Source of the DNA: Escherichia phage vB_Eco_mar004NP2
DNA length: 64,000 nucleotides
Strand: one strand, 5' to 3'
Sequence record: NC_048205.1
Both the position numbers and the translations under genes were made by a program. Below, in pieces: positions 7,700-40,359 of the stretch (positions are counted from its first letter, which is position 1; each line of letters begins with the position of its first letter). The notes under the pieces are model-generated. The model did no database searches and was not told the origin of the DNA. It saw nothing but the letters and a program-made list of their open reading frames with translations.

Positions 7700-8206
7700 T
7701 TACACCTTAAATTGTTGTAAGGATTTACACATTTCAATATCTGGGCTAAATTCTAGCATATAGCTAACAGCTTTTAAATCTTGAAGATTTATCCCAGTCC
7801 TACCGTTGACTATAACCGTTGGATACTGATACATCATAGCACCAGCATCATCAAGCACACACCAATGTTTGAGCTTATGCTTTTCAACGAAACGGAGAAC
7901 AGAATTACCTCTAGATAGCCCACCCCCAGTAAAATCAGTTGTACCAAGAAAACGATCGATAAGACCTAATCCGGTCATAATCTGAACGTTCTCCATCTCA
8001 TTCCTGACAGAGAACCATGAGGATACTCCAACAATCATTATCGGAGAAGGACGAATAAAATCCTGAAAAGCCTTGAGAAGCGGTTTGAAAACCCAGTCAC
8101 TTCCAAAGAAAATCTTTTCATTATCAGGTGCATGATGATGGGAGATGCTCGAATTGAGCACCCCATCAATGTCTAGAAAAATAATTGGAGTATTACTTAT
8201 TTCCAT
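7700..8206 (-). CDS. HAD-superfamily hydrolase/phosphatase (putative)
   Basis: N-terminal IIFLDIDGVLN matches HAD motif I (DxDG); AAGGAA RBS. Confidence 0.55.
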   Translation of the reverse strand: MEISNTPIIFLDIDGVLNSSISHHHAPDNEKIFFGSDWVFKPLLKAFQDFIRPSPIMIVGVSSWFSVRNEMENVQIMTGLGLIDRFLGTTDFTGGGLSRGNSVLRFVEKHKLKHWCVLDDAGAMMYQYPTVIVNGRTGINLQDLKAVSYMLEFSPDIEMCKSLQQFKV

Positions 8207-8296: not shown

Positions 8297-9115
8297 TTAT
8301 TTCTTGCTTCTCGACACATAAGGTCTACCCTCTAAATGGGCTTCTACACGAGCAATAAAATCAGGGTCATTGAAAGCATCTACCGCACCTTTACTCCAGT
8401 AAGGGATACCACGTTCTTCCAGCTGGTACATCTCACTACGAGTCATACCTTGATAGCCCGGTTCCGCTGCGAGGGCACTATCATAGTAGTTAACAACCAT
8501 AAGTTTCGCAGCAGTCAAATTAAGAACAGGAAATAATTCCCAGTAGAAGTTAATTACTTGGTTAGAGCAACCAACCACAATGATCATATCTTGACTGGTA
8601 ATACCATCAAAAATATTGTACATTTCTGCATACGCTGGAGCATGCTCCCCAAAGAAGATTACATTAGGTTTAACCCATTTATAATCATCTGGATCAATAG
8701 AATTGTACCCTATATCAATAATCCGTTTATTGCTACTATTGTAGCTATCAGCTACAACAACCTCTTTTAAATATCCGTGAATGTGCAGAATGTCACTATG
8801 TGGAACGCCAGCACGCTCAATAAGGTCATCAACGTTGGTAGTCAAGTTTACTACCTGACCTGGATATTGTTTATACCATTCACCAATACGCAAATGTGCA
8901 AGATTGGGTTCAACAGTTTTTAGCTCTTCACGACGTTTGTTGTAAAACATATGGGTTTTATGGTAAAAATTACCACGAAAGGTATGAATATTACATACTT
9001 CTTCTAGATCATAATCATCCCACAGTGCTTTACCACTAGCAGTATCAGTACGAAAAGCTCGTACACCACTTTCAACACTCAAACCCGCACCGCTAATAAT
9101 AATTAATCTACGCAT
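8297..9115 (-). CDS. Sir2-family NAD-dependent deacetylase/ADP-ribosyltransferase-like protein
   Basis: IISGAGLSVESGVRAFR matches Sir2 GAG..ESG..FR motif; start taken at Met 9115 with AGGTGG RBS. Confidence 0.75.
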   Translation of the reverse strand: MRRLIIISGAGLSVESGVRAFRTDTASGKALWDDYDLEEVCNIHTFRGNFYHKTHMFYNKRREELKTVEPNLAHLRIGEWYKQYPGQVVNLTTNVDDLIERAGVPHSDILHIHGYLKEVVVADSYNSSNKRIIDIGYNSIDPDDYKWVKPNVIFFGEHAPAYAEMYNIFDGITSQDMIIVVGCSNQVINFYWELFPVLNLTAAKLMVVNYYDSALAAEPGYQGMTRSEMYQLEERGIPYWSKGAVDAFNDPDFIARVEAHLEGRPYVSRSKK

Positions 9116-9329
9116 TTTCCACCTGTTCTCTGAAGTTTTGCCCAATACTGTCTAATAGCTCAGCTAATTCTTTATTGCCTTTCTCCATTAAGGTATTAGC
9201 AATAACTTCTAGCATATTAGCGCAGGATTCAACACCATCCTTATAGCCAGTTTCCCAATGCTGCATTAATGCGTTTTCCAAAGCGGCATTTAAACCCTTA
9301 TCTGGTAGCATCGGCTTCGAGAATGCCAT
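9108..9329 (-). CDS. hypothetical protein
   Basis: ORF with AGGAG RBS. Confidence 0.55.
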   Translation of the reverse strand: MAFSKPMLPDKGLNAALENALMQHWETGYKDGVESCANMLEVIANTLMEKGNKELAELLDSIGQNFREQVENA

Positions 9330-9809: not shown

Positions 9810-11684
9810 TTATTTAGCTCGAATATCCTGATGTTTCACCCTGCCCATAACCTCGTGCTGTTTACCAGGGTTAAATGGACGAGCACCTGGATTTCCAAGA
9901 TACCCACAAACTCGGCGAGTTACTTCAAGAGTTTCGGGATCATGATTACCACAGATAGGGCACTTAAACCCATCTTCGGATGCTACTGTTTCACCTAAGA
10001 ATCCACATTTACCGCAAGAATCCACTGGAGTATTAATACCGAAGTAATGAACTTTACTAGCAGCATAATTAATAACCCATTCCAGTGCATCTGGGAATCG
10101 TTTCATATCTGGTAGTTCTACATAGGAAATGCACCCACCAGAAGCAATAGGCGTAAAGTTAGATTCATAATCAAATTTCACATTGGGAGCAACCTTACGT
10201 TCTACATCAAGGTGGTGCGAGTTAGTGTAGTATCCTTTAGACAGAATATCTTCATGCTCCGGGAAATATTCGCGGTCTAGACGACAAAAACGGTCACATA
10301 GGGATTCTGATGGTGTAGCATACAGGCTATAACCTAACTTAGTTTCTTCCTTCTTCTGATCGACTCTATCCCGCATGTACTGCAATACACGCTGAACAAA
10401 CTTGATGCAGGTCTCGGACATTGTGTCTACATCTTTGCCAAACATGAACTGTAGCATTTCATGGCAACCAATATACCCTAGAGATACAGAAGCACGGTTA
10501 TAGAAATGATCGAATACATATTCATCAGGCTCCAAGCGCAGTCCAAAGGCTCCTGACATATAGAGGATGGGCGCAGCTTTAGCTTGGATGTATTTTAAGC
10601 GATCAACTCTCCACTCCAATGCTTTTAACGCTGTATCCACACGTAGCTCAAGCAAATCAAAGAATAGGTCAATATTTCCTTCAGCTTCGATAGCAATTCT
10701 AGGCAAGTTTACAGAAACAACACCTAAGTTATTACGACCGGCAGTTTCACCATCTTCTGTAGCAGCTAGGAATGAACGGCAGCCCATAGAAACTTTATAG
10801 TCTCCAGTAACTTCCACAACCTTATCATAGCTGATATAATCTGGATACATACGTTCAGCAGTACATTTCATAGCTAACTTCTTGATGTCATAATTAACAT
10901 CTCCTGGTTTCATGTTAACGCCATCACGGAGTACAAATACCAGTTTCGGGAAGATAGCTGTACGCTTATTGATACCTAAACCATCCATGCGTACTTTCAG
11001 TATTGCTTTCTGTACTAGACGTGCTTCCCAAGAAGTTCCTAGACCAAAACCAAAGGTAATAAACGGACTCTGACCATTAGAGTTGAACATGGTATTGATT
11101 TCATATTCTAAACCCTGACAAGCGTCATAGACTTCTTTTTCAGTCATCTCCGTAGCCATTACGGATGCTTTGGCTTCATCCTTAGTCCAACGTTTTGCAA
11201 ACGCATGATTTTTGTCATAGGATTTACGAACATAAGGTGCTAATACTTCATCAAGGCGATCTACAGAAGTACCACCATACTGATGGGAGCTAACTTGAGT
11301 GATAATCTGAGCAGTGATAGCCGCCGCAGTAGTGATAGAGTTTGGAGTGCTAATTTCAGCATTACCAACCTTCATACCATTCTTCAACATATCTTCCAGA
11401 GCTACCAGGCAACAGTTAGTCATGCCTAATGCAGCATAATCAGCATCATGGAAATGAATATCCCCAATCATATGAGCATTTCGAATCTGAATTGGCATTT
11501 CTTCTAGAATCAGATACTTACTCAATTCACCTGCAAGCATATCCCTTTGTGTAGGGAAACGTTCTGAGGGTTTATTGGCATTATTAAACAGCAGCTCTTC
11601 ATCTGCTGACCCTTCGATAATCTCTTTGCAGTTTCTAATTAACGCCTGCATTTCTTTATACTTTAGTTCTTCATTGCGATTCAT
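9810..11684 (-). CDS. nrdD: anaerobic ribonucleoside-triphosphate reductase
   Basis: 624 aa; C-terminal glycyl-radical motif RVCGYLG and Cys cluster CGKCG...CPICG; RBS AAGGAG. Confidence 0.9.
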   Translation of the reverse strand: MNRNEELKYKEMQALIRNCKEIIEGSADEELLFNNANKPSERFPTQRDMLAGELSKYLILEEMPIQIRNAHMIGDIHFHDADYAALGMTNCCLVALEDMLKNGMKVGNAEISTPNSITTAAAITAQIITQVSSHQYGGTSVDRLDEVLAPYVRKSYDKNHAFAKRWTKDEAKASVMATEMTEKEVYDACQGLEYEINTMFNSNGQSPFITFGFGLGTSWEARLVQKAILKVRMDGLGINKRTAIFPKLVFVLRDGVNMKPGDVNYDIKKLAMKCTAERMYPDYISYDKVVEVTGDYKVSMGCRSFLAATEDGETAGRNNLGVVSVNLPRIAIEAEGNIDLFFDLLELRVDTALKALEWRVDRLKYIQAKAAPILYMSGAFGLRLEPDEYVFDHFYNRASVSLGYIGCHEMLQFMFGKDVDTMSETCIKFVQRVLQYMRDRVDQKKEETKLGYSLYATPSESLCDRFCRLDREYFPEHEDILSKGYYTNSHHLDVERKVAPNVKFDYESNFTPIASGGCISYVELPDMKRFPDALEWVINYAASKVHYFGINTPVDSCGKCGFLGETVASEDGFKCPICGNHDPETLEVTRRVCGYLGNPGARPFNPGKQHEVMGRVKHQDIRAK

Positions 11685-27466: not shown

Positions 27467-27673
27467 ATGGCTAATCCTGAAATTACCATGCAACGATTCA
27501 TGGCTAAAGGCATGATAGCTGAGGCAGGAATTGAACAAGAAGTAAAAAGTTATTACGAACAGATTAAGGGTATTGTAGACTCGGCTAAAAACACCGGAGA
27601 AAAAGAACATGGTGCGGCAATTATGGCTATAACTCTTATTAGTCTAGACTTGGCCGAAGAATCTGGAGTTTAG
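27467..27673 (+). CDS. hypothetical protein
   Basis: ORF with GGAG RBS. Confidence 0.5.
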   Translation: MANPEITMQRFMAKGMIAEAGIEQEVKSYYEQIKGIVDSAKNTGEKEHGAAIMAITLISLDLAEESGV

Positions 27674-27703
27674 CTCCTCCAAACAGAATTTTTAAAAATG
27701 TAC

Positions 27704-27733
27704 TTGCCTTTTGCCTTAAATTTCTGATATAAT
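27704..27733 (+). promoter_or_regulatory. T5-type early promoter
   Basis: -35 TTGCCT / 18 bp / -10 TATAAT. Confidence 0.5.
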
Positions 27734-27763
27734 AATTATATAAATTGATGGAGGAGTTAACGA

Positions 27764-28039
27764 ATGCAAAATCGTGTTGTAGCAACTGGTATTGAAAGTG
27801 CAATCTGTAAATCCTGGGAAGGCTGGGAAGGTGAGATTGAATGGCTTTATTTCTATGATGTAGAACTTCTACCGGAAGTTAAAGCTAAATGTATTGAAGC
27901 TGGCATGGCTCCAGATGCAAAAGCTGATATTGATATTTTAATGTCTGAACTTAAAGGTCGTGTAGTTACCGTTAGTAATGAGGGCGAAGAAGTTTTCGAA
28001 CTTCCGTTTTCCTTAACTGTCACTCCTAAGTTCGACTAA
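27764..28039 (+). CDS. hypothetical protein
   Basis: ORF with GGAGGAG RBS and promoter. Confidence 0.6.
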   Translation: MQNRVVATGIESAICKSWEGWEGEIEWLYFYDVELLPEVKAKCIEAGMAPDAKADIDILMSELKGRVVTVSNEGEEVFELPFSLTVTPKFD

Positions 28040-33890: not shown

Positions 33891-34142
33891 ATGCACGTTT
33901 TTGAGTTTCGTAATAAAAGTACTGATAAGCGAGTTATCATTATTGGAGAAACATATCGAGCATATGAACAAACTGATGGCTCTGTTATCTTGAATGATGA
34001 GAAAGGAGGTTTTAGCTTTTATCCAGAAGAACCTTATGAAGAGTTTCGAAAACAATTTAACCTAGACTGGAGAAAGCATTTAAACACTGTTGCTTCATCT
34101 GTAGTATTGCCAACTACCAGTACTGTACTCTCTAATGGCTGA
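33891..34142 (+). CDS. hypothetical protein
   Basis: ORF with AAGGAAA RBS. Confidence 0.55.
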   Translation: MHVFEFRNKSTDKRVIIIGETYRAYEQTDGSVILNDEKGGFSFYPEEPYEEFRKQFNLDWRKHLNTVASSVVLPTTSTVLSNG

Positions 34143-34309
34143 CAACCTAAAAGTAAAGATTGATAAACAAAAGAAACGTGTAGAAGTAGAGATTGGTGAA
34201 GAACGTGTTGGCTTTACTTTTGAATTTCTACAGCAAATGGCAATGGCAGTTATGACTGATAAGTCTCCTGTTATTGAAAAAGAAATCCCGTTGAAATAAC
34301 GGGATCATC

Positions 34310-34384
34310 GCTCCTAAAGCATTGCTGGCGATGCAGTTGCCTTGTAAGCATCTGAACCGGGTTCGATTCCTGGTGGGAGCACCA
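34310..34384 (+). tRNA. tRNA-Thr (anticodon TGT)
   Basis: D-arm GCAT/ATGC, AC loop CTTGTAA, T-loop TTCGATT. Confidence 0.7.
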
Positions 34385-34399
34385 AATTTAAAAATTCAT

Positions 34400-34428
34400 T
34401 TGCCTTCTCTCTTATTTATTGTTATAAT
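34400..34428 (+). promoter_or_regulatory. T5-type early promoter
   Basis: -35 TTGCCT / 17 bp / -10 TATAAT. Confidence 0.55.
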
Positions 34429-34458
34429 ATTTATATAAATTAATGAGAGGGAAACCAA

Positions 34459-34749
34459 ATGAAACGTTATCTTTCTATTGTATTCCAAACTGGTGGTCAA
34501 AGATATACCTATGAATTTCCATCTTCTTGGAAAATCAAAGAAGGTGATCAAGTAGTAGTGTTAACACCGCGTGAAGGGTATAAAGTAGTAATGGTTAAAC
34601 AAGTATTCCCAAAAGATCATGAACCAGCTAAAGGCATTCGCTATAAGATGATTCATGGTGTGGTCCGTCAAGTACCACGAACTGAGGTAGAAGTAGATAA
34701 GACTGGAGAAACTAAATTCCATTATACTTCTTACTTAGATAGTGTGTGA
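34459..34749 (+). CDS. hypothetical protein
   Basis: ORF with GAGAGGG RBS and promoter. Confidence 0.55.
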   Translation: MKRYLSIVFQTGGQRYTYEFPSSWKIKEGDQVVVLTPREGYKVVMVKQVFPKDHEPAKGIRYKMIHGVVRQVPRTEVEVDKTGETKFHYTSYLDSV

Positions 34750-34764
34750 TGTAAATATTCTAAT

Positions 34765-34841
34765 ACTTCGGTAGCTTAGCGATCTAAAGCACCCGGCTGA
34801 TAACCGAGAGATCGGGGGTTTAAATCCCTCCCGGAGTACCA
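34765..34841 (+). tRNA. tRNA-Ile (anticodon GAT)
   Basis: D-arm GCTT/AAGC, AC loop CTGATAA, T-loop TTTAAAT. Confidence 0.7.
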
Positions 34842-34937
34842 AATTTAGGAATTAAGACTATGCGTCCAGGAAAGTTTAAAAAAGCTAATTGGTCTAAAGA
34901 GTATAAAGAATACTTACTTAGTCTAGTAAAACATAAC

Positions 34938-35013
34938 AGTTAGTTGGCAGAGTGGTTATGCACCTCCTTCATACGGAGCGACTACAGTGGTTCAAATCCA
35001 CTACTAACTACCA
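34938..35013 (+). tRNA. tRNA with CAT anticodon (Met, fMet or Ile2)
   Basis: Perfect acceptor AGTTAGT/ACTAACT, AC loop TTCATAC, T-arm AGTGG/CCACT. Confidence 0.6.
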
Positions 35014-35050
35014 TTAAAATAGCTAGAGATAGCTAAATTTAGGAGCAGCT

Positions 35051-35245
35051 ATGTTAACAATTAAAATAATGTCAGCCAAGAATGGTGAACATATCCATAC
35101 AGGCAAAAGCGTAAGCTTTAATCCTAGAAATAAGAGATTGGCTATAGTTGGAGTAGATCAAGCCATCTTTTTAAAAGAAGATGAAGTAGCATACGTCATG
35201 AACCAAACTGGTAAGACAGTTTCCGTATACTATGGAAAAGTATAA
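35051..35245 (+). CDS. hypothetical protein
   Basis: ORF with AGGAG RBS. Confidence 0.5.
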   Translation: MLTIKIMSAKNGEHIHTGKSVSFNPRNKRLAIVGVDQAIFLKEDEVAYVMNQTGKTVSVYYGKV

Positions 35246-35287
35246 AGAATAAAGAGCTGAGCCAAATTCTAGCATCGTGGAGATCTA

Positions 35288-35656
35288 ATGAAAGCATATC
35301 AAAATCTTAAGTCTGGCGTAATTAATCTTGTTCATGATAATCAGATTATTCAACTGTACTCTAAAAATGGCGAACTTAAACAAAAAGTTCTGGTTGAGGA
35401 TCTAGAGGGTATTACACCCCATTTTGACCCCGAGTCCTTTCGTGAAGTCAAGGTGGAAGTCGCCCCTCAAATTGAAGGTGGTCAGCACCTAAATGTCAAT
35501 GTGTTAAGTCGTGATCAGCTTTTGGATGCACAGAAACATCCTGAAAAATACCCTCAATTAACTATCCGTGTTTCAGGGTACGCTGTGCGTTTTAACGCAC
35601 TGACGCGTGAACAGCAGAACGACGTTATTAGTCGTACATTTACTCAGGCGATGTAA
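35288..35656 (+). CDS. grcA: autonomous glycyl radical cofactor (GrcA/YfiD-like)
   Basis: [12 protein letters not shown]...[37 protein letters not shown] closely matches GrcA including RVSGY glycyl-radical motif. Confidence 0.85.
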
Positions 35657-35737
35657 TGGGGCTTGGATACGGTTTCTACGAACTACGTAAGGTAGTCGAG
35701 CAAACTCCATTTATCTCCCAAGTTTTAGGAGAAATGT

Positions 35738-36052
35738 GTGGATCGAGCATTAAGACGTCATCACCGGCAACGTGTAAAGAACAACCGCAAGAAGTATTGG
35801 ACAGTCTTCCCACATGAAGAAAGCCCTAAACGGTTAGGTATTATCACTACTACTCCTTGTATCTGTTCTTGTTGGATGTGCGGGAATCCTCGCAAATACT
35901 TTAAGAATAGTAAAGCAGGGATGAAAACCTCGGAGATTAGGAAAATGGAAGCAATGATTACGGATATTTCAAATGATGAATTTGATGGCTTTGTAGGATT
36001 CGGAGAAGGAATTAGCTCAGGCTGTTTCGAAGATGTACGCCCCGATTTGTAA
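35738..36052 (+). CDS. hypothetical Cys-rich protein
   Basis: GTG start after GGAG; followed by intrinsic terminator. Confidence 0.5.
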   Translation: MDRALRRHHRQRVKNNRKKYWTVFPHEESPKRLGIITTTPCICSCWMCGNPRKYFKNSKAGMKTSEIRKMEAMITDISNDEFDGFVGFGEGISSGCFEDVRPDL

Positions 36053-36063
36053 TTAATAACAAA

Positions 36064-36096
36064 CCCCAGCTATTGAATAGGTAGTCTGGGGTTTTT
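36064..36096 (+). terminator. rho-independent terminator
   Basis: Hairpin CCCCAG...CTGGGG followed by TTTTT. Confidence 0.7.
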
Positions 36097-36173
36097 CTGT
36101 ATACAGGTAGATAATTTATGTATAATAAAATTCATCCACATTAGGTTAATTTAAAAAACTTAATGGAGGTAAT

Positions 36174-36521
36174 ATGAGCCGTACTTATCGTAAACAATCT
36201 GGTGATCAGTGGTGGAAGTCTAAAGAACAATTCTCTCAAGAATATTCTTTCATCAAAGAAAATGGCTACTGGATTCGTGTTATTTATGCCAAATCTTGGG
36301 ACGACATCAAAAAAGAAATGAAGGAAGCAACCATTCGTAATGAGAAAAAGGATGGTTATAACTGGAATTCTGTTAGTAAGAATGTTAAGTGGCATTCTAA
36401 TAAAATGGTTCGTCAAGGGAATCGTCAAGAACTCCACCGCGTGATGAAAGATCCAGAAAATTACGACTATAATCGCGATCATGACATGCGTAAGCGTGGA
36501 TTATGGTGGTGCTACGACTAA
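36174..36521 (+). CDS. hypothetical protein
   Basis: ORF with GGAGG RBS. Confidence 0.55.
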   Translation: MSRTYRKQSGDQWWKSKEQFSQEYSFIKENGYWIRVIYAKSWDDIKKEMKEATIRNEKKDGYNWNSVSKNVKWHSNKMVRQGNRQELHRVMKDPENYDYNRDHDMRKRGLWWCYD

Positions 36522-36538
36522 TTTCTGAAATAATTCAT

Positions 36539-36567
36539 TTGCTAAACCTCTCTTTTCTTGTTATAAT
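36539..36567 (+). promoter_or_regulatory. T5-type early promoter
   Basis: -35 TTGCTA / 17 bp / -10 TATAAT. Confidence 0.6.
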
Positions 36568-36597
36568 ATATTTATAAATTGATGGGAGAGGTTTGAA

Positions 36598-36879
36598 ATG
36601 AAAACTCGTCTAGACTGTGCTATCCACGTTGTCGAGCATAGTGTTGTTGGAACCTGTATGTCTTACCATGAGGCAGGTCGCTTAATTAAAGAACGTGTGG
36701 CAGATGTATGTGGATTGAAGATTACTGCTGAGGAAGCTGATGATCTTTTAGGCCAAGCACTTGAGAAAACCGAAATATTCCTCTGTGATTCTTGTTCTTG
36801 GTGGTGTGAAGCTCACGAACATTCCTTCAATGATTATGATGTATGCCGTGACTGTAATGAGGAAGATACTGATGAATAA
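36598..36879 (+). CDS. hypothetical Cys-rich protein
   Basis: ORF with RBS and promoter. Confidence 0.55.
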   Translation: MKTRLDCAIHVVEHSVVGTCMSYHEAGRLIKERVADVCGLKITAEEADDLLGQALEKTEIFLCDSCSWWCEAHEHSFNDYDVCRDCNEEDTDE

Positions 36880-37171
36880 GTTTATTATTGCATTGATGGT
36901 TTCGGCAGTTAGTTTCGGTTCTCTAGCATCTACCAAAGTTTTTATGAAAAATGGCAATGTTAAAGTACAACAGAACGGCATTATTACCGAGTATGGTAAA
37001 GTTCGTGATGTTAAGGAACGTAACGGCAAAGTAGAAATATATACTAATAAAAACTTCTCTACTCCGGCTGTTACTGTTAGCAAACGTGGTGAGATAACTA
37101 CTCAACGTACTAATAGCTCTAGTTCTTTTACTTGTCGTTATGATTGCGACTTTGAAGGTGAAGATGAATAA
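36872..37171 (+). CDS. secreted small protein (signal peptide)
   Basis: MNKFIIALMVSAVSFGSLAS signal-like N-terminus; overlaps upstream stop. Confidence 0.5.
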   Translation: MNKFIIALMVSAVSFGSLASTKVFMKNGNVKVQQNGIITEYGKVRDVKERNGKVEIYTNKNFSTPAVTVSKRGEITTQRTNSSSSFTCRYDCDFEGEDE

Positions 37172-37559
37172 TTTAGACCCTAGAATTAAATTTGCAATTA
37201 CAGAAATCCAAGATCAAATTGATGAGGACTTCACTGTTTGGTCAAGGTCTGGTAATGGAGAATATTGCCAGCTTTATAGCATGAAAATGGGTATCTCAAT
37301 TGAGCTTAATATCAACTCTGAAGGTAGAGTAGAAGCCCAACCTATGTTTAGTATTCCAGGCTTCTCTGGATTTGTTGCAGGTATGAAATTGTGTCTACCA
37401 AATAACCATCTTCATCGAGTTATTTGTCAACTAGAGACTATTAAACACTTCTTACCAGAAGATAACATTAATGACCACTACCATGAAGTAGTAGCAGCTC
37501 ATATGATGAAAGAATGCAAACGTCGGAGAGAAGAACGTGAAAAAGCTAAACATCAATAG
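37164..37559 (+). CDS. hypothetical protein
   Basis: Internal ATG of track ORF 37140-37559 with GAAGGTGAAG RBS. Confidence 0.5.
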   Translation: MNNLDPRIKFAITEIQDQIDEDFTVWSRSGNGEYCQLYSMKMGISIELNINSEGRVEAQPMFSIPGFSGFVAGMKLCLPNNHLHRVICQLETIKHFLPEDNINDHYHEVVAAHMMKECKRRREEREKAKHQ

Positions 37560-37833
37560 CACAGTGCAGATTCCAGCAACTAAGGATATTTTAACATTCC
37601 TACGTAGTGAAAACACTCAGTTTTGGCACGACTATATTCAGGAAAATAAAAATAATCCAGATATAGTGGCTTTTGCCAAAACCCGTATTGGGGAATACAA
37701 AGATCCAGAAATTAAAGATGGCATGATTACTATGCAGTTATGGATAGCTATGAAAACATTTGGACCTACTATGAGTTTAGGATTTGCCCCTCTGTTTACT
37801 GATATTCTAATTAAGGAAAAGGATCTGAAATGA
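37537..37833 (+). CDS. hypothetical protein
   Basis: GTG start after GGAGAGAAG. Confidence 0.45.
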   Translation: MKKLNINSTVQIPATKDILTFLRSENTQFWHDYIQENKNNPDIVAFAKTRIGEYKDPEIKDGMITMQLWIAMKTFGPTMSLGFAPLFTDILIKEKDLK

Positions 37834-38114
37834 TTATCTCTCCATTTGCTCTTTGGTTCGTCATTGGGTCTATAGTTGCTATTTACAGCTTGATTGATGA
37901 TCTGTATATCTCTAAGAACAAAGATGTACTTTTATATGTTATACATAAAACACGTCCACTAGATCTAGCACCTCTTGACGATAAAACACTATTAAGATGT
38001 GGTATGTCTGTGCTATTTATTATGGATATTCTGCTAGGACCAGCATCTGTATTTTTCTATTACCGAAAAACTCGTAATATGAAAAAATTTAAAGCAGAAA
38101 TGCAGAATAATTAA
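37830..38114 (+). CDS. hypothetical membrane protein
   Basis: Hydrophobic helices; AAGGAAAAGG RBS. Confidence 0.5.
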   Translation: MIISPFALWFVIGSIVAIYSLIDDLYISKNKDVLLYVIHKTRPLDLAPLDDKTLLRCGMSVLFIMDILLGPASVFFYYRKTRNMKKFKAEMQNN

Positions 38115-38723: not shown

Positions 38724-39422
38724 ATGAGAATCATTTCTAAATTCGCAGATGTGTATGATTTGCAGAACAGTTTGTTTGATCCCGATCGTGTTTGGGAGCG
38801 TAAAACTGAAGAGTTACTAGTTAAGGTAACTGATGATGCAGAAAAGAACATTGTGCATACTCGCCAAGTATTTCGTGAGGGTTCACTATCTTTCCGTGGT
38901 GACTTCGAATACTTCGTAAACCCACTGTTTATTGCAGGTGAAGTTTACTGGCTACACGAGCTGTACTGCTGGCACCCAGCATTTAGTTTCAAAACGTTCA
39001 ACCTCGACACTATGTTCGATAAAATGGAAGAGATGGGATTGCATGCTCGCTCCTACTTAATGGATAAGAGTCGTGGAGATGTTCGTGAAACAATGCGTGA
39101 TTTGCTCGTTGAAGCAAAACCTAAAGCAGAACGTATCTTGTCCGAACTGCGTGTACCGATTGCATATGTGAAAGGTATTAAGAAGAACGATAACGATGAT
39201 GTTCGTAACTTCGTGATTCAGACTAACATTCGTTTCCATCAGTCAGGTATTCCGTGGCAGGAAATTGAAAGTAACTTATACCGTTTACACCAGATGATCG
39301 AGCAATATATCTGGGGCGTATTAGGAACCGGTGAACCAGATACTATTACCACTTCCGATAAGGATCGCTTAGCTGCATATGGATTTGATATTGTTACTTC
39401 TTTTAGGAATATGAAAAGATGA
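38724..39422 (+). CDS. hypothetical protein
   Basis: 232-aa ORF downstream of promoter. Confidence 0.6.
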   Translation: MRIISKFADVYDLQNSLFDPDRVWERKTEELLVKVTDDAEKNIVHTRQVFREGSLSFRGDFEYFVNPLFIAGEVYWLHELYCWHPAFSFKTFNLDTMFDKMEEMGLHARSYLMDKSRGDVRETMRDLLVEAKPKAERILSELRVPIAYVKGIKKNDNDDVRNFVIQTNIRFHQSGIPWQEIESNLYRLHQMIEQYIWGVLGTGEPDTITTSDKDRLAAYGFDIVTSFRNMKR

Positions 39423-39916
39423 TCAGTAAGGAAGAGCTAAGAAGGATGTTCGATTACCGAGATGATGGTAATCTTATCTGGAAACCCAGGGAAGGGGACG
39501 AACACTTTAATAAGATATTCGCCGGAACAGTAGCAGGATCTAGACAAAGTACAGGACATAGAGTAGTTGAGCTGTATAATGGTTCCCTAGCTATAGGTAC
39601 ACATAGATTAATCTATGCATGGCATACTGGAGAATGGCCAGAAATAGTTGACCATAAGGATAAAGACTCAACTAATGATAGGTTTGAGAACCTAAGACCT
39701 GCTACAAGATCTGATAACGCTTGTAATCAAAAAGTAAGAAGCGACAACCATTTAGGCGTTAAAAATATTCATAGAAAAACAAATGGGACTTACCAAGTAA
39801 GAATCACTAAACATGGTAAGCAAGTTTCGAAAACACTTAAGAGTTTGGAAGAGGCCATAGAATGGAGAGACGCCAAACTTAAAGAACTCCACGGTGAGTT
39901 TGCGAGTACAGGCTGA
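39419..39916 (+). CDS. HNH homing endonuclease (HNH + AP2-like domain)
   Basis: VDHKDKDSTNDRFENLRPATRSDN HNH motif; AP2-like GVKNIHRK..GTYQVRI segment. Confidence 0.7.
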   Translation: MISKEELRRMFDYRDDGNLIWKPREGDEHFNKIFAGTVAGSRQSTGHRVVELYNGSLAIGTHRLIYAWHTGEWPEIVDHKDKDSTNDRFENLRPATRSDNACNQKVRSDNHLGVKNIHRKTNGTYQVRITKHGKQVSKTLKSLEEAIEWRDAKLKELHGEFASTG

Positions 39917-40359
39917 TGTGGAAATGGTTTGTAGACTTAGTTTGGGATAATAAGATGTATATCCTGGGAGCAGGTCTAGCGATAGGCATCGGATTCGGTG
40001 CTTATCACTTAGTTAATAAGGTTGAGACTCTAGCAGGTGATCTTGCAGCAGCTACTAAAAAGATCTCTTCTCTAGAAACCTCCCTTAATAATGTGAGGGC
40101 TGAGAGTGAACTTCGTGAGACTCGAATGAATCAGTATTTCACAATGAATAATGTTTCGCAAGCAGATCTAGACAAGAAAATTAATCAGCTTGATAAAGCA
40201 CTTAGTCGTCAAGATATTATAGCTGCAAAGCCTGGATTGGTTACATTAATTGCTAAAAAGCAGAGTAAGGAGTTCGAGGAAAGATTAGCATGTTTAACTG
40301 GAAACTTGGAATACTGCTCGCAGCCGCAATCACAATCACAGGCTGTGCACAAGAAATAA
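39916..40359 (+). CDS. putative i-spanin-like protein (N-terminal TM, coiled-coil)
   Basis: TM helix YILGAGLAIGIGFGAY then coiled-coil; 3' end overlaps next ORF. Confidence 0.4.
   Translation: MWKWFVDLVWDNKMYILGAGLAIGIGFGAYHLVNKVETLAGDLAAATKKISSLETSLNNVRAESELRETRMNQYFTMNNVSQADLDKKINQLDKALSRQDIIAAKPGLVTLIAKKQSKEFEERLACLTGNLEYCSQPQSQSQAVHKK

What the first reader, a model, noticed from the sequence alone, without database searches (positions are those of the whole stretch)
35288..35656. GrcA-like glycyl-radical spare-part protein alongside NrdD, with no NrdG activase seen
The 122-aa protein has a C-terminal half nearly identical in pattern to bacterial GrcA/YfiD, including RVSGY. The window also encodes the glycyl-radical enzyme NrdD (9810-11684), but I found no radical-SAM activase (CxxxCxxC) ORF. 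The phage may rely on host activase and use the GrcA-like protein to rescue oxygen-damaged glycyl-radical enzymes.
Basis: partly seen in the sequence, partly recalled or inferred. Interest (0 to 1): 0.5.

Follow-up and report, generated by a model that had tools for sequence, protein, structure and literature searches.

The report
T5-like phage copy of GrcA
This is the T5-family phage version of a known small "spare-part" protein (GrcA/YfiD, T4 Y06I) that most likely repairs the host's oxygen-damaged pyruvate formate-lyase; it is real and conserved, but already catalogued and ordinary.

Summary
ORF 35288-35656 (+) encodes a 122-aa protein. Its last 60 residues are 80% identical to both E. coli GrcA and the PflB C-terminus, and they include RVSGYAV with the radical glycine at G97. 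The window is a T5-like Salmonella/E. coli phage (99-100% identical to PMBT29/EH4), and the gene is the ortholog of T5.056 (119/122 identical). It aligns full-length with T4 Vs.6/Y06I, the phage protein shown to rescue O2-cleaved PFL. dN/dS of 0.04-0.07 shows a gene under selection.

No NrdG or PflA activase is present in the window, in the complete PMBT29 genome, or in T5. That nrdD occurs without nrdG in many phages was already reported in 2013, in a paper that also describes the T5 RNR gene layout.

The radical domain copies PFL, not NrdD, so the likely target is host PflB and the likely activase is host PflA. The missing NrdG is a separate matter: T4 has NrdG and still carries GrcA. GrcA and NrdD lie 23.6 kb apart on opposite strands. 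A plausible indirect link is that PFL makes formate, the reductant of this type of NrdD.

Verdict: a known kind, already annotated in GenBank. Low interest.

The parts
35288..35656 (+). CDS of the 122-aa GrcA-like autonomous glycyl-radical protein (ortholog of T5.056; homolog of T4 Vs.6/Y06I)
   Evidence: ORF; Pfam/NCBIfam; 119/122 identical to T5.056; 52% identical over the full length to T4 Vs.6, E=9e-39; phrog_1209 full-length match, E=4.7e-48
35279..35282 (+). GGAG ribosome-binding site, 5 nt before the ATG
   Evidence: read directly from the sequence
35288..35467 (+). N-terminal half (residues 1-60). It is diverged: 26% identical to E. coli GrcA and 38% to T4 Vs.6. It is still under purifying selection. 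By analogy with YfiD residues 1-60 it is the likely docking/recognition part.
   Evidence: N-half dN 0.02-0.08 against dS 0.4-1.5; role of YfiD 1-60 from PMC8683613; AF2 predicts beta strands at moderate confidence, pLDDT 65-79
35468..35653 (+). C-terminal glycyl-radical domain (residues 61-122), a copy of PFL residues 698-759
   Evidence: phmmer to 1h16/1cm5, residues 61-122 against 698-759, E=5e-27; 6owr E=1.6e-30. Foldseek: 6owr TM 0.74 normalised to the target, 80% identity over 60 residues. 41 invariant columns across 38 phage and bacterial homologs.
35576..35578 (+). Codon of Gly97, the predicted radical-bearing glycine in RVSGYAV (equivalent to GrcA G102 and PflB G734)
   Evidence: sequence and alignments; G102/G734 numbering from PMC12338860
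34400..34428 (+). Sigma-70-like promoter (TTGCCT-17-TATAAT with TG). It is the likely start of the early transcription unit carrying the T5.058 homolog, tRNA-Ile, tRNA-Met, a 64-aa ORF and the GrcA gene. Its position matches annotated promoter P11 of T5.
   Evidence: consensus scan (10/12 match, though the number of sites in the region is no greater than in shuffles); tRNAs; T5 annotation of P11 upstream of T5.058. The assignment is inferred, not shown.
9810..11684 (-). NrdD, a class III anaerobic ribonucleotide reductase of the formate type, with no cognate NrdG in the phage. It is not physically linked to the GrcA gene and is listed because the finding refers to it.
   Evidence: Pfam NRDD E=3.4e-172; 53% identical to E. 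coli NrdD; keeps G594 (=G681), C302 (=C384), M300 (=M382), C91 (=C175) and four Zn-site Cys

Best explanation
The gene encodes a phage GrcA/YfiD-type 'spare-part' protein, an auxiliary metabolic gene expressed from the T5-type early region.

Proposed mechanism, by homology with E. coli YfiD and T4 Y06I:
1. When oxygen cleaves the host's active pyruvate formate-lyase at Gly734, the phage protein docks onto the damaged enzyme. Its N-terminal half helps binding.
2. The host's own radical-SAM activase PflA installs a glycyl radical on Gly97 of the RVSGYAV loop.
3. That radical domain substitutes for the lost PFL C-terminus, so pyruvate is again converted to acetyl-CoA and formate.

Why a phage would carry it (inferred): T5-type phages shut off host gene expression, so the host cannot make more GrcA or PflB. 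Keeping existing PFL alive in low-oxygen gut conditions preserves ATP supply. It also preserves formate, the reductant of the phage's formate-type NrdD.

The phage encodes neither PflA nor NrdG. Both its GrcA and its NrdD must therefore be activated by host enzymes.

Shown here: sequence and fold homology, conservation, purifying selection, and absence of activases. Inferred: activation by PflA, rescue of PFL, the formate link, and the use of host NrdG.
For: - Radical domain: 48/60 identical to both E. coli GrcA and the PflB C-terminus, with RVSGYAV intact. Foldseek best hits are YfiD 6owr and PFL 2pfl.
- Full-length homology to T4 Vs.6: 52% identical, E=9e-39. Vs.6 is annotated as GrcA in T4. 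YfiD and T4 Y06I are the two validated PFL spare parts, activated by PFL-AE (PMC8683613; PMC12338860).
- Selection: dN/dS is 0.04-0.07 among four T5-like orthologs, and both halves are constrained.
- Distribution: about 430 T5-like phage records at 90% amino-acid identity or more, and 1582 phage records in total. Homologs also occur in about 350-kb jumbo phages and Vibrio phages.
- Host genes: E. coli carries pflA, pflB, grcA and nrdG.
- No phage activase in the window, the whole PMBT29 genome or T5.
- The NrdD keeps the residues of E. coli's enzyme, including the Met at E. coli position 382. Formate is listed as the class III reductant (PMC2795772).
- The NrdD glycyl-loop region is closer to E. 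coli's (59% identical) than T4's is (48%). This is consistent with use of host NrdG.
- T5 annotation notes that A1 mediates host shut-off and that dmp dephosphorylates dNMPs.
Against: - No biochemical or genetic test exists for any T5-like member; literature searches returned nothing.
- The protein scores below NCBIfam's GrcA equivalog cutoff (121.5 against 170 bits), because the N-terminal half is only 26% identical to E. coli GrcA. In YfiD that half matters for binding cleaved PFL and for activation, so its divergence could change the target or the affinity.
- The formate-to-NrdD rationale is an inference.
- Whether host NrdG can activate this NrdD is untested. From memory, T4 NrdD required its own NrdG, which would argue against easy cross-activation. 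I could not verify this in the library.
Confidence: 0.8

Rival explanations
1. Spare part or radical relay for the phage's own NrdD. The GrcA-like protein, activated by host PflA, would replace or re-radicalise the oxygen-damaged glycyl domain of NrdD and so compensate for the missing NrdG.
For: NrdD is present while NrdG is absent from the whole phage genome. Authors in the field have speculated that spare parts for other glycyl radical enzymes might exist (PMC8683613).
Against: - The protein shows no similarity to the NrdD C-terminus (blastp E=5.7).
- NrdD's radical loop is RRVCGYLG, preceded by a four-Cys Zn site that GrcA lacks.
- The domain is 80% identical to PFL's.
- T4, Vibrio/Aeromonas T4-likes and jumbo phages carry GrcA together with NrdG, so GrcA does not track NrdG loss.
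Confidence: 0.03
2. Decoy or inhibitor. The protein would soak up host PflA, or occupy PFL without restoring catalysis, to redirect pyruvate flux during infection.
For: The N-terminal half is strongly diverged from bacterial GrcA (26% identity). A phage could benefit from rewiring central metabolism.
Against: - All 41 invariant columns of the radical domain, including the glycine loop, are retained. A mere binder would not need these.
- The T4 homolog restores PFL activity.
- dN in the C-half is 0.00-0.02.
Confidence: 0.06
3. Spare part for a different host PFL-type enzyme, for example TdcE (2-ketobutyrate formate-lyase), rather than PflB.
For: Some GenBank records call it '2-ketobutyrate formate-lyase'. 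E. coli genomes show a median of three places similar to the gene, of which only pflB was listed.
Against: Those names are automatic annotations. The best DNA-level match in E. coli is pflB (74.2%). PflB is the abundant fermentative enzyme and the validated target of YfiD/Y06I.
Confidence: 0.08
4. Non-functional captured fragment of a host pflB or grcA gene.
For: Only the C-terminal half resembles host genes at the DNA level (query 184-369, 74% identical to pflB).
Against: - The ORF is intact in hundreds of genomes.
- dN/dS is 0.04-0.07 with dS up to 0.87.
- It has its own SD sequence.
- Synonymous sites against host genes are saturated, so this is an old phage lineage, not a recent capture.
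Confidence: 0.01

Closest known systems
Bacteriophage T4 Vs.6 (Y06I), autonomous glycyl radical cofactor
   Same: Same size (120 against 122 aa) and the same two-part architecture. It aligns over the full length (52% identity, E=9e-39), including the MKAYQ N-terminus. Both are phage-encoded, and both phages lack PflA. It is a validated rescuer of O2-cleaved PFL.
   Different: T4's radical domain is essentially E. coli grcA: 59/62 aa and 95.7% nt identical over the last 62 codons, with dS 0.08. The T5-type domain is an old, separate lineage, about 70-72% nt identical to grcA, pflB and vs.6 alike. T4 also encodes NrdG; T5-type phages do not. The T5-type N-half carries an extra '[13 protein letters not shown]' segment.
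E. coli GrcA/YfiD (PDB 6owr; NCBIfam TIGR04365)
   Same: A small standalone protein whose C-terminal 60 residues are 80% identical, with the RVSGYAV glycine loop. The fold match to 6owr has TM 0.74 on the target.
   Different: The N-terminal approximately 60 residues are only 26% identical. The protein scores 121.5 bits, below the 170-bit equivalog cutoff. Of the 12 positions where GrcA and PflB differ in the radical domain, it matches GrcA at 3 and PflB at 3, and is unique at 6 (read from the alignment).
C-terminal glycyl-radical domain of pyruvate formate-lyase PflB (residues 698-759; PDB 1h16/2pfl)
   Same: 48/60 identical. PflB is the best DNA-level match in E. coli genomes (74.2%).
   Different: The phage protein lacks the approximately 700-residue catalytic barrel, so it cannot be a formate-lyase. 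GenBank names such as 'pyruvate formate-lyase', '2-ketobutyrate formate-lyase', 'acetyltransferase' and 'ribonucleotide reductase subunit' are misnomers.
Phage class III RNR modules (nrdD with or without nrdG)
   Same: NrdD here is a typical phage/enterobacterial class III RNR. It sits in the T5-type layout with phoH between nrdD and nrdAB, the layout described in PMC3653736.
   Different: There is no nrdG, unlike the T4-type nrdGD operon. The GrcA gene is not part of this module: it lies 23.6 kb away on the opposite strand.

Membership tests
GrcA/YfiD-Y06I autonomous glycyl radical cofactor | Small standalone protein (about 120-130 aa) with no catalytic barrel | tested here: met
   122 aa; its own SD, start and stop
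GrcA/YfiD-Y06I autonomous glycyl radical cofactor | C-terminal Gly_radical domain with the RVSGYAV glycine loop, near-identical to the PFL C-terminus | tested here: met
   PF01228 66.4 bits (cutoff 22.2); 48/60 identical to PflB and to GrcA; PDB matches
GrcA/YfiD-Y06I autonomous glycyl radical cofactor | Full-length match above the NCBIfam equivalog threshold (TIGR04365, 170 bits) | tested here: not met
   121.5 bits, with only residues 50-122 aligned. The N-terminal half is diverged. The model is built on bacterial GrcA. The phage-wide family phrog_1209 matches over the full length at E=4.7e-48.
GrcA/YfiD-Y06I autonomous glycyl radical cofactor | Full-length homology to an experimentally validated member | tested here: met
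   T4 Vs.6/Y06I: 52% identity over residues 1-122 against 1-120, E=9e-39
GrcA/YfiD-Y06I autonomous glycyl radical cofactor | Glycyl radical installed by PFL-activating enzyme (PflA) | not testable with these tools
   Only the substrate loop RVSGYAV is conserved. The phage has no PflA and the E. coli host does.
GrcA/YfiD-Y06I autonomous glycyl radical cofactor | Restores activity to O2-cleaved PFL | not testable with these tools
   Shown for YfiD and T4 Y06I only
Class III RNR system (NrdD plus NrdG) | NrdD with the glycyl-radical Gly, the thiyl Cys and the C-terminal Zn-Cys4 site | tested here: met
   G594, C302, C91, C557/C560/C575/C578; Pfam NRDD E=3.4e-172
Class III RNR system (NrdD plus NrdG) | Cognate radical-SAM activase NrdG (CX3CX2C) encoded with it | tested here: not met
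   Absent from the window, the whole PMBT29 genome and T5. The positive control finds T4 NrdG at E=4.8e-47.

The most novel reading that the evidence does not exclude
The GrcA-like protein, radicalised by host PflA, also serves the phage's NrdD in T5-type phages. It would act either as a trans-acting replacement glycyl domain or as a radical relay, and so functionally substitute for the missing NrdG. This would be the first spare part or activation bypass for a glycyl radical enzyme other than PFL.

A milder version is much more likely, roughly 0.3. In it, phage GrcA is needed under low oxygen because PFL-derived formate is the obligatory reductant for phage NrdD in a phage that does not recycle host nucleotides.
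Probability: 0.03. Interest if true: 0.8.

Novelty: already known. Interest (0 to 1): 0.18.

Why it matters
It matters little as a discovery. The protein family and its repair mechanism were established in 2001 for E. coli YfiD and T4 Y06I. The T5 ortholog (T5.056) carries a glycyl-radical InterPro domain match in the T5 reference record, and several GenBank records already call the T5-like gene an autonomous glycyl radical cofactor.

There are two modest points of value:
- Annotation clean-up. PHROGs lists the family as 'unknown function', and GenBank names include 'pyruvate formate-lyase', 'acetyltransferase' and 'ribonucleotide reductase subunit'.
- A testable physiological idea. Gut phages that shut off host expression may carry GrcA to keep host PFL working, and with it ATP and formate for their formate-dependent NrdD, at fluctuating oxygen. 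On this idea T5-type phages depend on two host radical-SAM activases, PflA and NrdG.

Tried and rejected
1. Hidden activase. I searched for CX3CX2C and related motifs in all frames of the window. I also ran tblastn, an NrdG profile HMM and PflA phmmer against six-frame ORFs (30 aa or longer) of the window, the full PMBT29 genome and T5. Nothing scored better than E=0.14. The only CX3CX2C in a sizeable ORF is 'CICSCWMC' in the T5.055 homolog (35738-36052), which has no radical-SAM similarity.

2. GrcA as a mimic of the NrdD C-terminus. No similarity was found.

3. Recent capture from the host. Rejected for the T5-type gene, because synonymous sites are saturated against grcA and pflB. It does appear true for the T4 vs.6 radical domain.

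4. Literature on T5-like GrcA, on GrcA as an auxiliary metabolic gene, and on T5 nrdD/nrdG. Three searches returned nothing. I could not verify from the library whether E. coli NrdG can activate a phage NrdD.

5. Fold of the N-terminal half. AF2 gives a moderately confident beta meander (pLDDT 65-79), but Foldseek finds no significant match for it. No conclusion was drawn.

6. The promoter scan gives a P11-like site, but the region as a whole has no more sites than shuffled sequence. No terminator was found.

Full report
**1. What is there.**
ORF 35288..35656 on the + strand (ATG to TAA) encodes 122 aa. A GGAG sits at 35279-35282, five bases before the start.
- Pfam places residues 62-103 in Gly_radical (PF01228, E=3.8e-18, 66.4 bits against a 22.2-bit cutoff).
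- The best NCBIfam models are the GrcA families: TIGR04365 (E=2.6e-35), GrcA3 and GrcA2, followed by the C-terminus of formate C-acetyltransferase. The TIGR04365 score of 121.5 bits is under the 170-bit equivalog cutoff because only residues 50-122 align.
- Against PDB sequences, the top hits are YfiD/GrcA 6owr (E=1.6e-30) and E. coli PFL, residues 698-759 (E=5e-27).
- I took E. coli K-12 GrcA, PflB, PflA, NrdG and NrdD and T4 Vs.6 and NrdG from annotated records. The last 60 residues are 48/60 identical to GrcA, 48/60 to the PflB C-terminus and 47/60 to T4 Vs.6. The first approximately 60 residues are 26% identical to GrcA and 38% to Vs.6.
- The radical glycine of RVSGYAV is G97 (codon 35576-35578).

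**2. Where the window comes from.**
Megablast of 34000-38000 gives 100% identity to Salmonella phages EH4, PMBT29 and SPLA5b, and 92-97% to many Escherichia and Salmonella T5-like phages. Close relatives are classified in Demerecviridae, genera Epseptimavirus and Tequintavirus.
- The window aligns to PMBT29 positions 40638-104077 at 99.2-99.8%, apart from a window stretch (39414-39950) that is missing from PMBT29.
- The ortholog in T5 itself is T5.056 (27656..28024). It is annotated 'putative acetyltransferase-related protein, match to IPR001150' and is 119/122 identical.
- The gene lies in the tRNA-rich early region, downstream of tRNA-Ile and tRNA-Met. It follows a promoter-like site at 34400-34428 that corresponds in position to T5 promoter P11. 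That assignment is inferred.

**3. Is it a real, selected gene?**
tblastn finds it in 1582 phage records:
- about 430 T5-like records at 90% identity or more;
- T4-like phages of Escherichia, Klebsiella, Yersinia, Enterobacter and Aeromonas at about 50-60%, many annotated 'autonomous glycyl radical cofactor GrcA' (vs.6).

The large protein database adds about 350-kb jumbo phages at 57-60% identity, Vibrio phages, and bacterial GrcA of Vibrio, Aeromonas and Photobacterium. An alignment of 38 phage and bacterial members has 41 invariant columns, all in the C-terminal domain.

Nei-Gojobori estimates among the window gene, T5.056, SH9 and KKP 3953 give dN/dS of 0.04-0.07 with dS up to 0.87. Both halves are constrained. 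This rules out a decaying fragment.

At the DNA level the radical domain is about 70-72% identical to E. coli grcA, E. coli pflB and T4 vs.6 alike, with saturated synonymous sites. The T5-type gene is therefore an old phage lineage rather than a recent host capture.

**4. Structure.**
AlphaFold2 on the 38-sequence alignment gave mean pLDDT 70. The model has helix 75-83, a beta hairpin at 92-95/98-101 flanking G97, and helix 107-118. Foldseek's only significant hits are YfiD 6owr (TM 0.74 normalised to the target, 80% identity) and PFL 2pfl/1cm5. The N-terminal half is predicted as beta strands at moderate confidence and has no structural match. I draw no conclusion from it.

**5. The activase question.**
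- No CX3CX2C motif occurs in any stop-to-stop frame of 50 aa or more in the window, other than CICSCWMC in the T5.055 homolog.
- I searched six-frame ORFs of 30 aa or more from the window, the complete 106,910-bp PMBT29 genome and 112 kb of T5. The remaining T5 sequence is the terminal repeat.
- These were searched with tblastn (window and PMBT29 only), a T4 plus E. coli NrdG profile HMM, and E. coli PflA by phmmer. Nothing scored better than E=0.14.
- As a positive control, phmmer with E. coli NrdG finds T4 NrdG at E=4.8e-47.
- In the phage collection, NrdG is found in 2273 records (T4-like, FelixO1-like, rV5-like, ICP1, jumbo phages). No T5-like genome is identifiable among the 60 sampled rows.
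- In T5, nrdD is annotated with its own promoter and terminator.

The absence is therefore real and lineage-wide. It is not new. Dwivedi et al. [quoted passage not shown] RNRdb had already counted 30 phage NrdD against 21 NrdG.

**6. The NrdD.**
ORF 9810..11684 (-) is a full NrdD (Pfam NRDD E=3.4e-172), 53% identical to E. coli NrdD.
- It keeps the radical Gly (G594 = G681), the Cys at E. coli positions 384 and 175, the Met at E. coli position 382, and the four Zn-site cysteines.
- From memory, that Met marks formate-dependent enzymes. RNRdb lists formate as the class III reductant.
- From the first Zn cysteine to the C-terminus it is 59% identical to E. coli NrdD, against 48% for T4 NrdD. It shares TRRVCGYLG exactly with the host, whereas T4 has IRRTCGYLG. 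This is weak but consistent evidence that it is adapted to host NrdG.

**7. How it most likely works.**
YfiD and T4 Y06I are the only validated spare-part proteins. PFL-AE (PflA) installs the glycyl radical on them, and they complex with O2-cleaved PFL and restore activity. YfiD residues 1-60 are disordered but needed for binding cleaved PFL and for efficient activation (PMC8683613). G102 of GrcA hands the radical to C419 of PflB (PMC12338860).

The window protein has the same architecture, an intact radical domain and full-length homology to Y06I. The best-supported mechanism is therefore rescue of host PflB, and possibly TdcE, using host PflA.

The rationale for a T5-type phage is inferred from two points:
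- T5 annotation records A1-dependent shut-off of host gene expression and a dNMP phosphatase. The infected cell therefore cannot renew PflB or GrcA, and phage dNTPs must come from ribonucleotide reduction.
- PFL supplies acetyl-CoA/ATP and the formate that NrdD consumes.

**8.
It is right that this is a GrcA-like spare part and that host activases must be used. It is wrong, or unsupported, in tying it to NrdD and NrdG:
- The domain copies PFL and shows no similarity to NrdD (E=5.7).
- The relevant activase is PflA.
- T4 has NrdG and still carries Vs.6.
- The two genes are 23.6 kb apart on opposite strands.

**9. Novelty and score.**
The kind is known, and the T5-like member is already in GenBank, sometimes correctly named: KKP 3953, PECP14 and rutana. 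The absence of nrdG in many phages is published. No paper in the searchable library discusses the T5-type protein, and PHROGs lists its family (phrog_1209) as function unknown. The residual value is therefore annotation and a testable physiological hypothesis. Interest 0.18.

The most novel reading not excluded is that GrcA serves NrdD in place of NrdG. I put this at about 3%.

Noticed in passing
L004:23558-23746 (T4 vs.6, last 62 codons) against L005 grcA: The radical-domain half of T4 vs.6 is 178/186 nt (95.7%) identical to E. coli K-12 grcA, with dS about 0.08. Its N-terminal half is diverged. This suggests a recent recombination or gene conversion between T4 and the host gene. The T5-type gene shows no such signal.
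   Followed up: partly
window 39419-39916 (+): A 165-aa HNH-type homing-endonuclease-like ORF lies in a window stretch (39414-39950) that is absent from the otherwise 99%-identical phage PMBT29. Judged from the gene order in the annotations, this looks like the slot that hegF (T5.046) occupies in T5. It is a presence/absence polymorphism of a mobile endonuclease.
   Followed up: partly
window 35656-36052 (+): Immediately downstream of GrcA, two overlapping candidate genes are annotated inconsistently between records. One is a 53-aa ORF (35656-35817, phrog_31464) whose ATG overlaps the GrcA stop codon. The other is a 104-aa GTG-start ORF (35738-36052, T5.055 homolog, phrog_4499) with an Arg/Lys-rich N-terminus and a CICSCWMCGNPRK cysteine motif. 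It has no Pfam match and its function is unknown.
   Followed up: partly
L009:3961-5685 (T5 nrdD) against window 9810-11684: T5 NrdD is annotated as 574 aa, against 624 aa here. The alignment is 91% identical but has 50 gap positions on the T5 side. This may be a deletion or an annotation/sequence difference in the reference T5 record.
   Followed up: no
window 35288-35656; GenBank and PHROGs annotations: Names given to this 122-aa protein across records include 'pyruvate formate-lyase', '2-ketobutyrate formate-lyase', 'putative acetyltransferase', 'ribonucleotide reductase subunit', 'hypothetical protein' and, correctly, 'autonomous glycyl radical cofactor'. PHROGs phrog_1209 is 'unknown function'.
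   Followed up: yes
P0106 (NCBI protein, 137 aa) in alignment A1: This enterobacterial-type GrcA sequence carries a tandem duplication of the radical motif ([21 protein letters not shown]). It could be an assembly artefact or a natural duplication of the glycine loop.
   Followed up: no
window 8297-9145 (-) and 7700-8206 (-): A Sir2-family protein (Pfam SIR2, E=1.3e-24) lies about 0.7 kb downstream of nrdD, as in T5 (T5.102; T5.105 is also annotated Sir2). Its role in the phage was not examined here.
   Followed up: no
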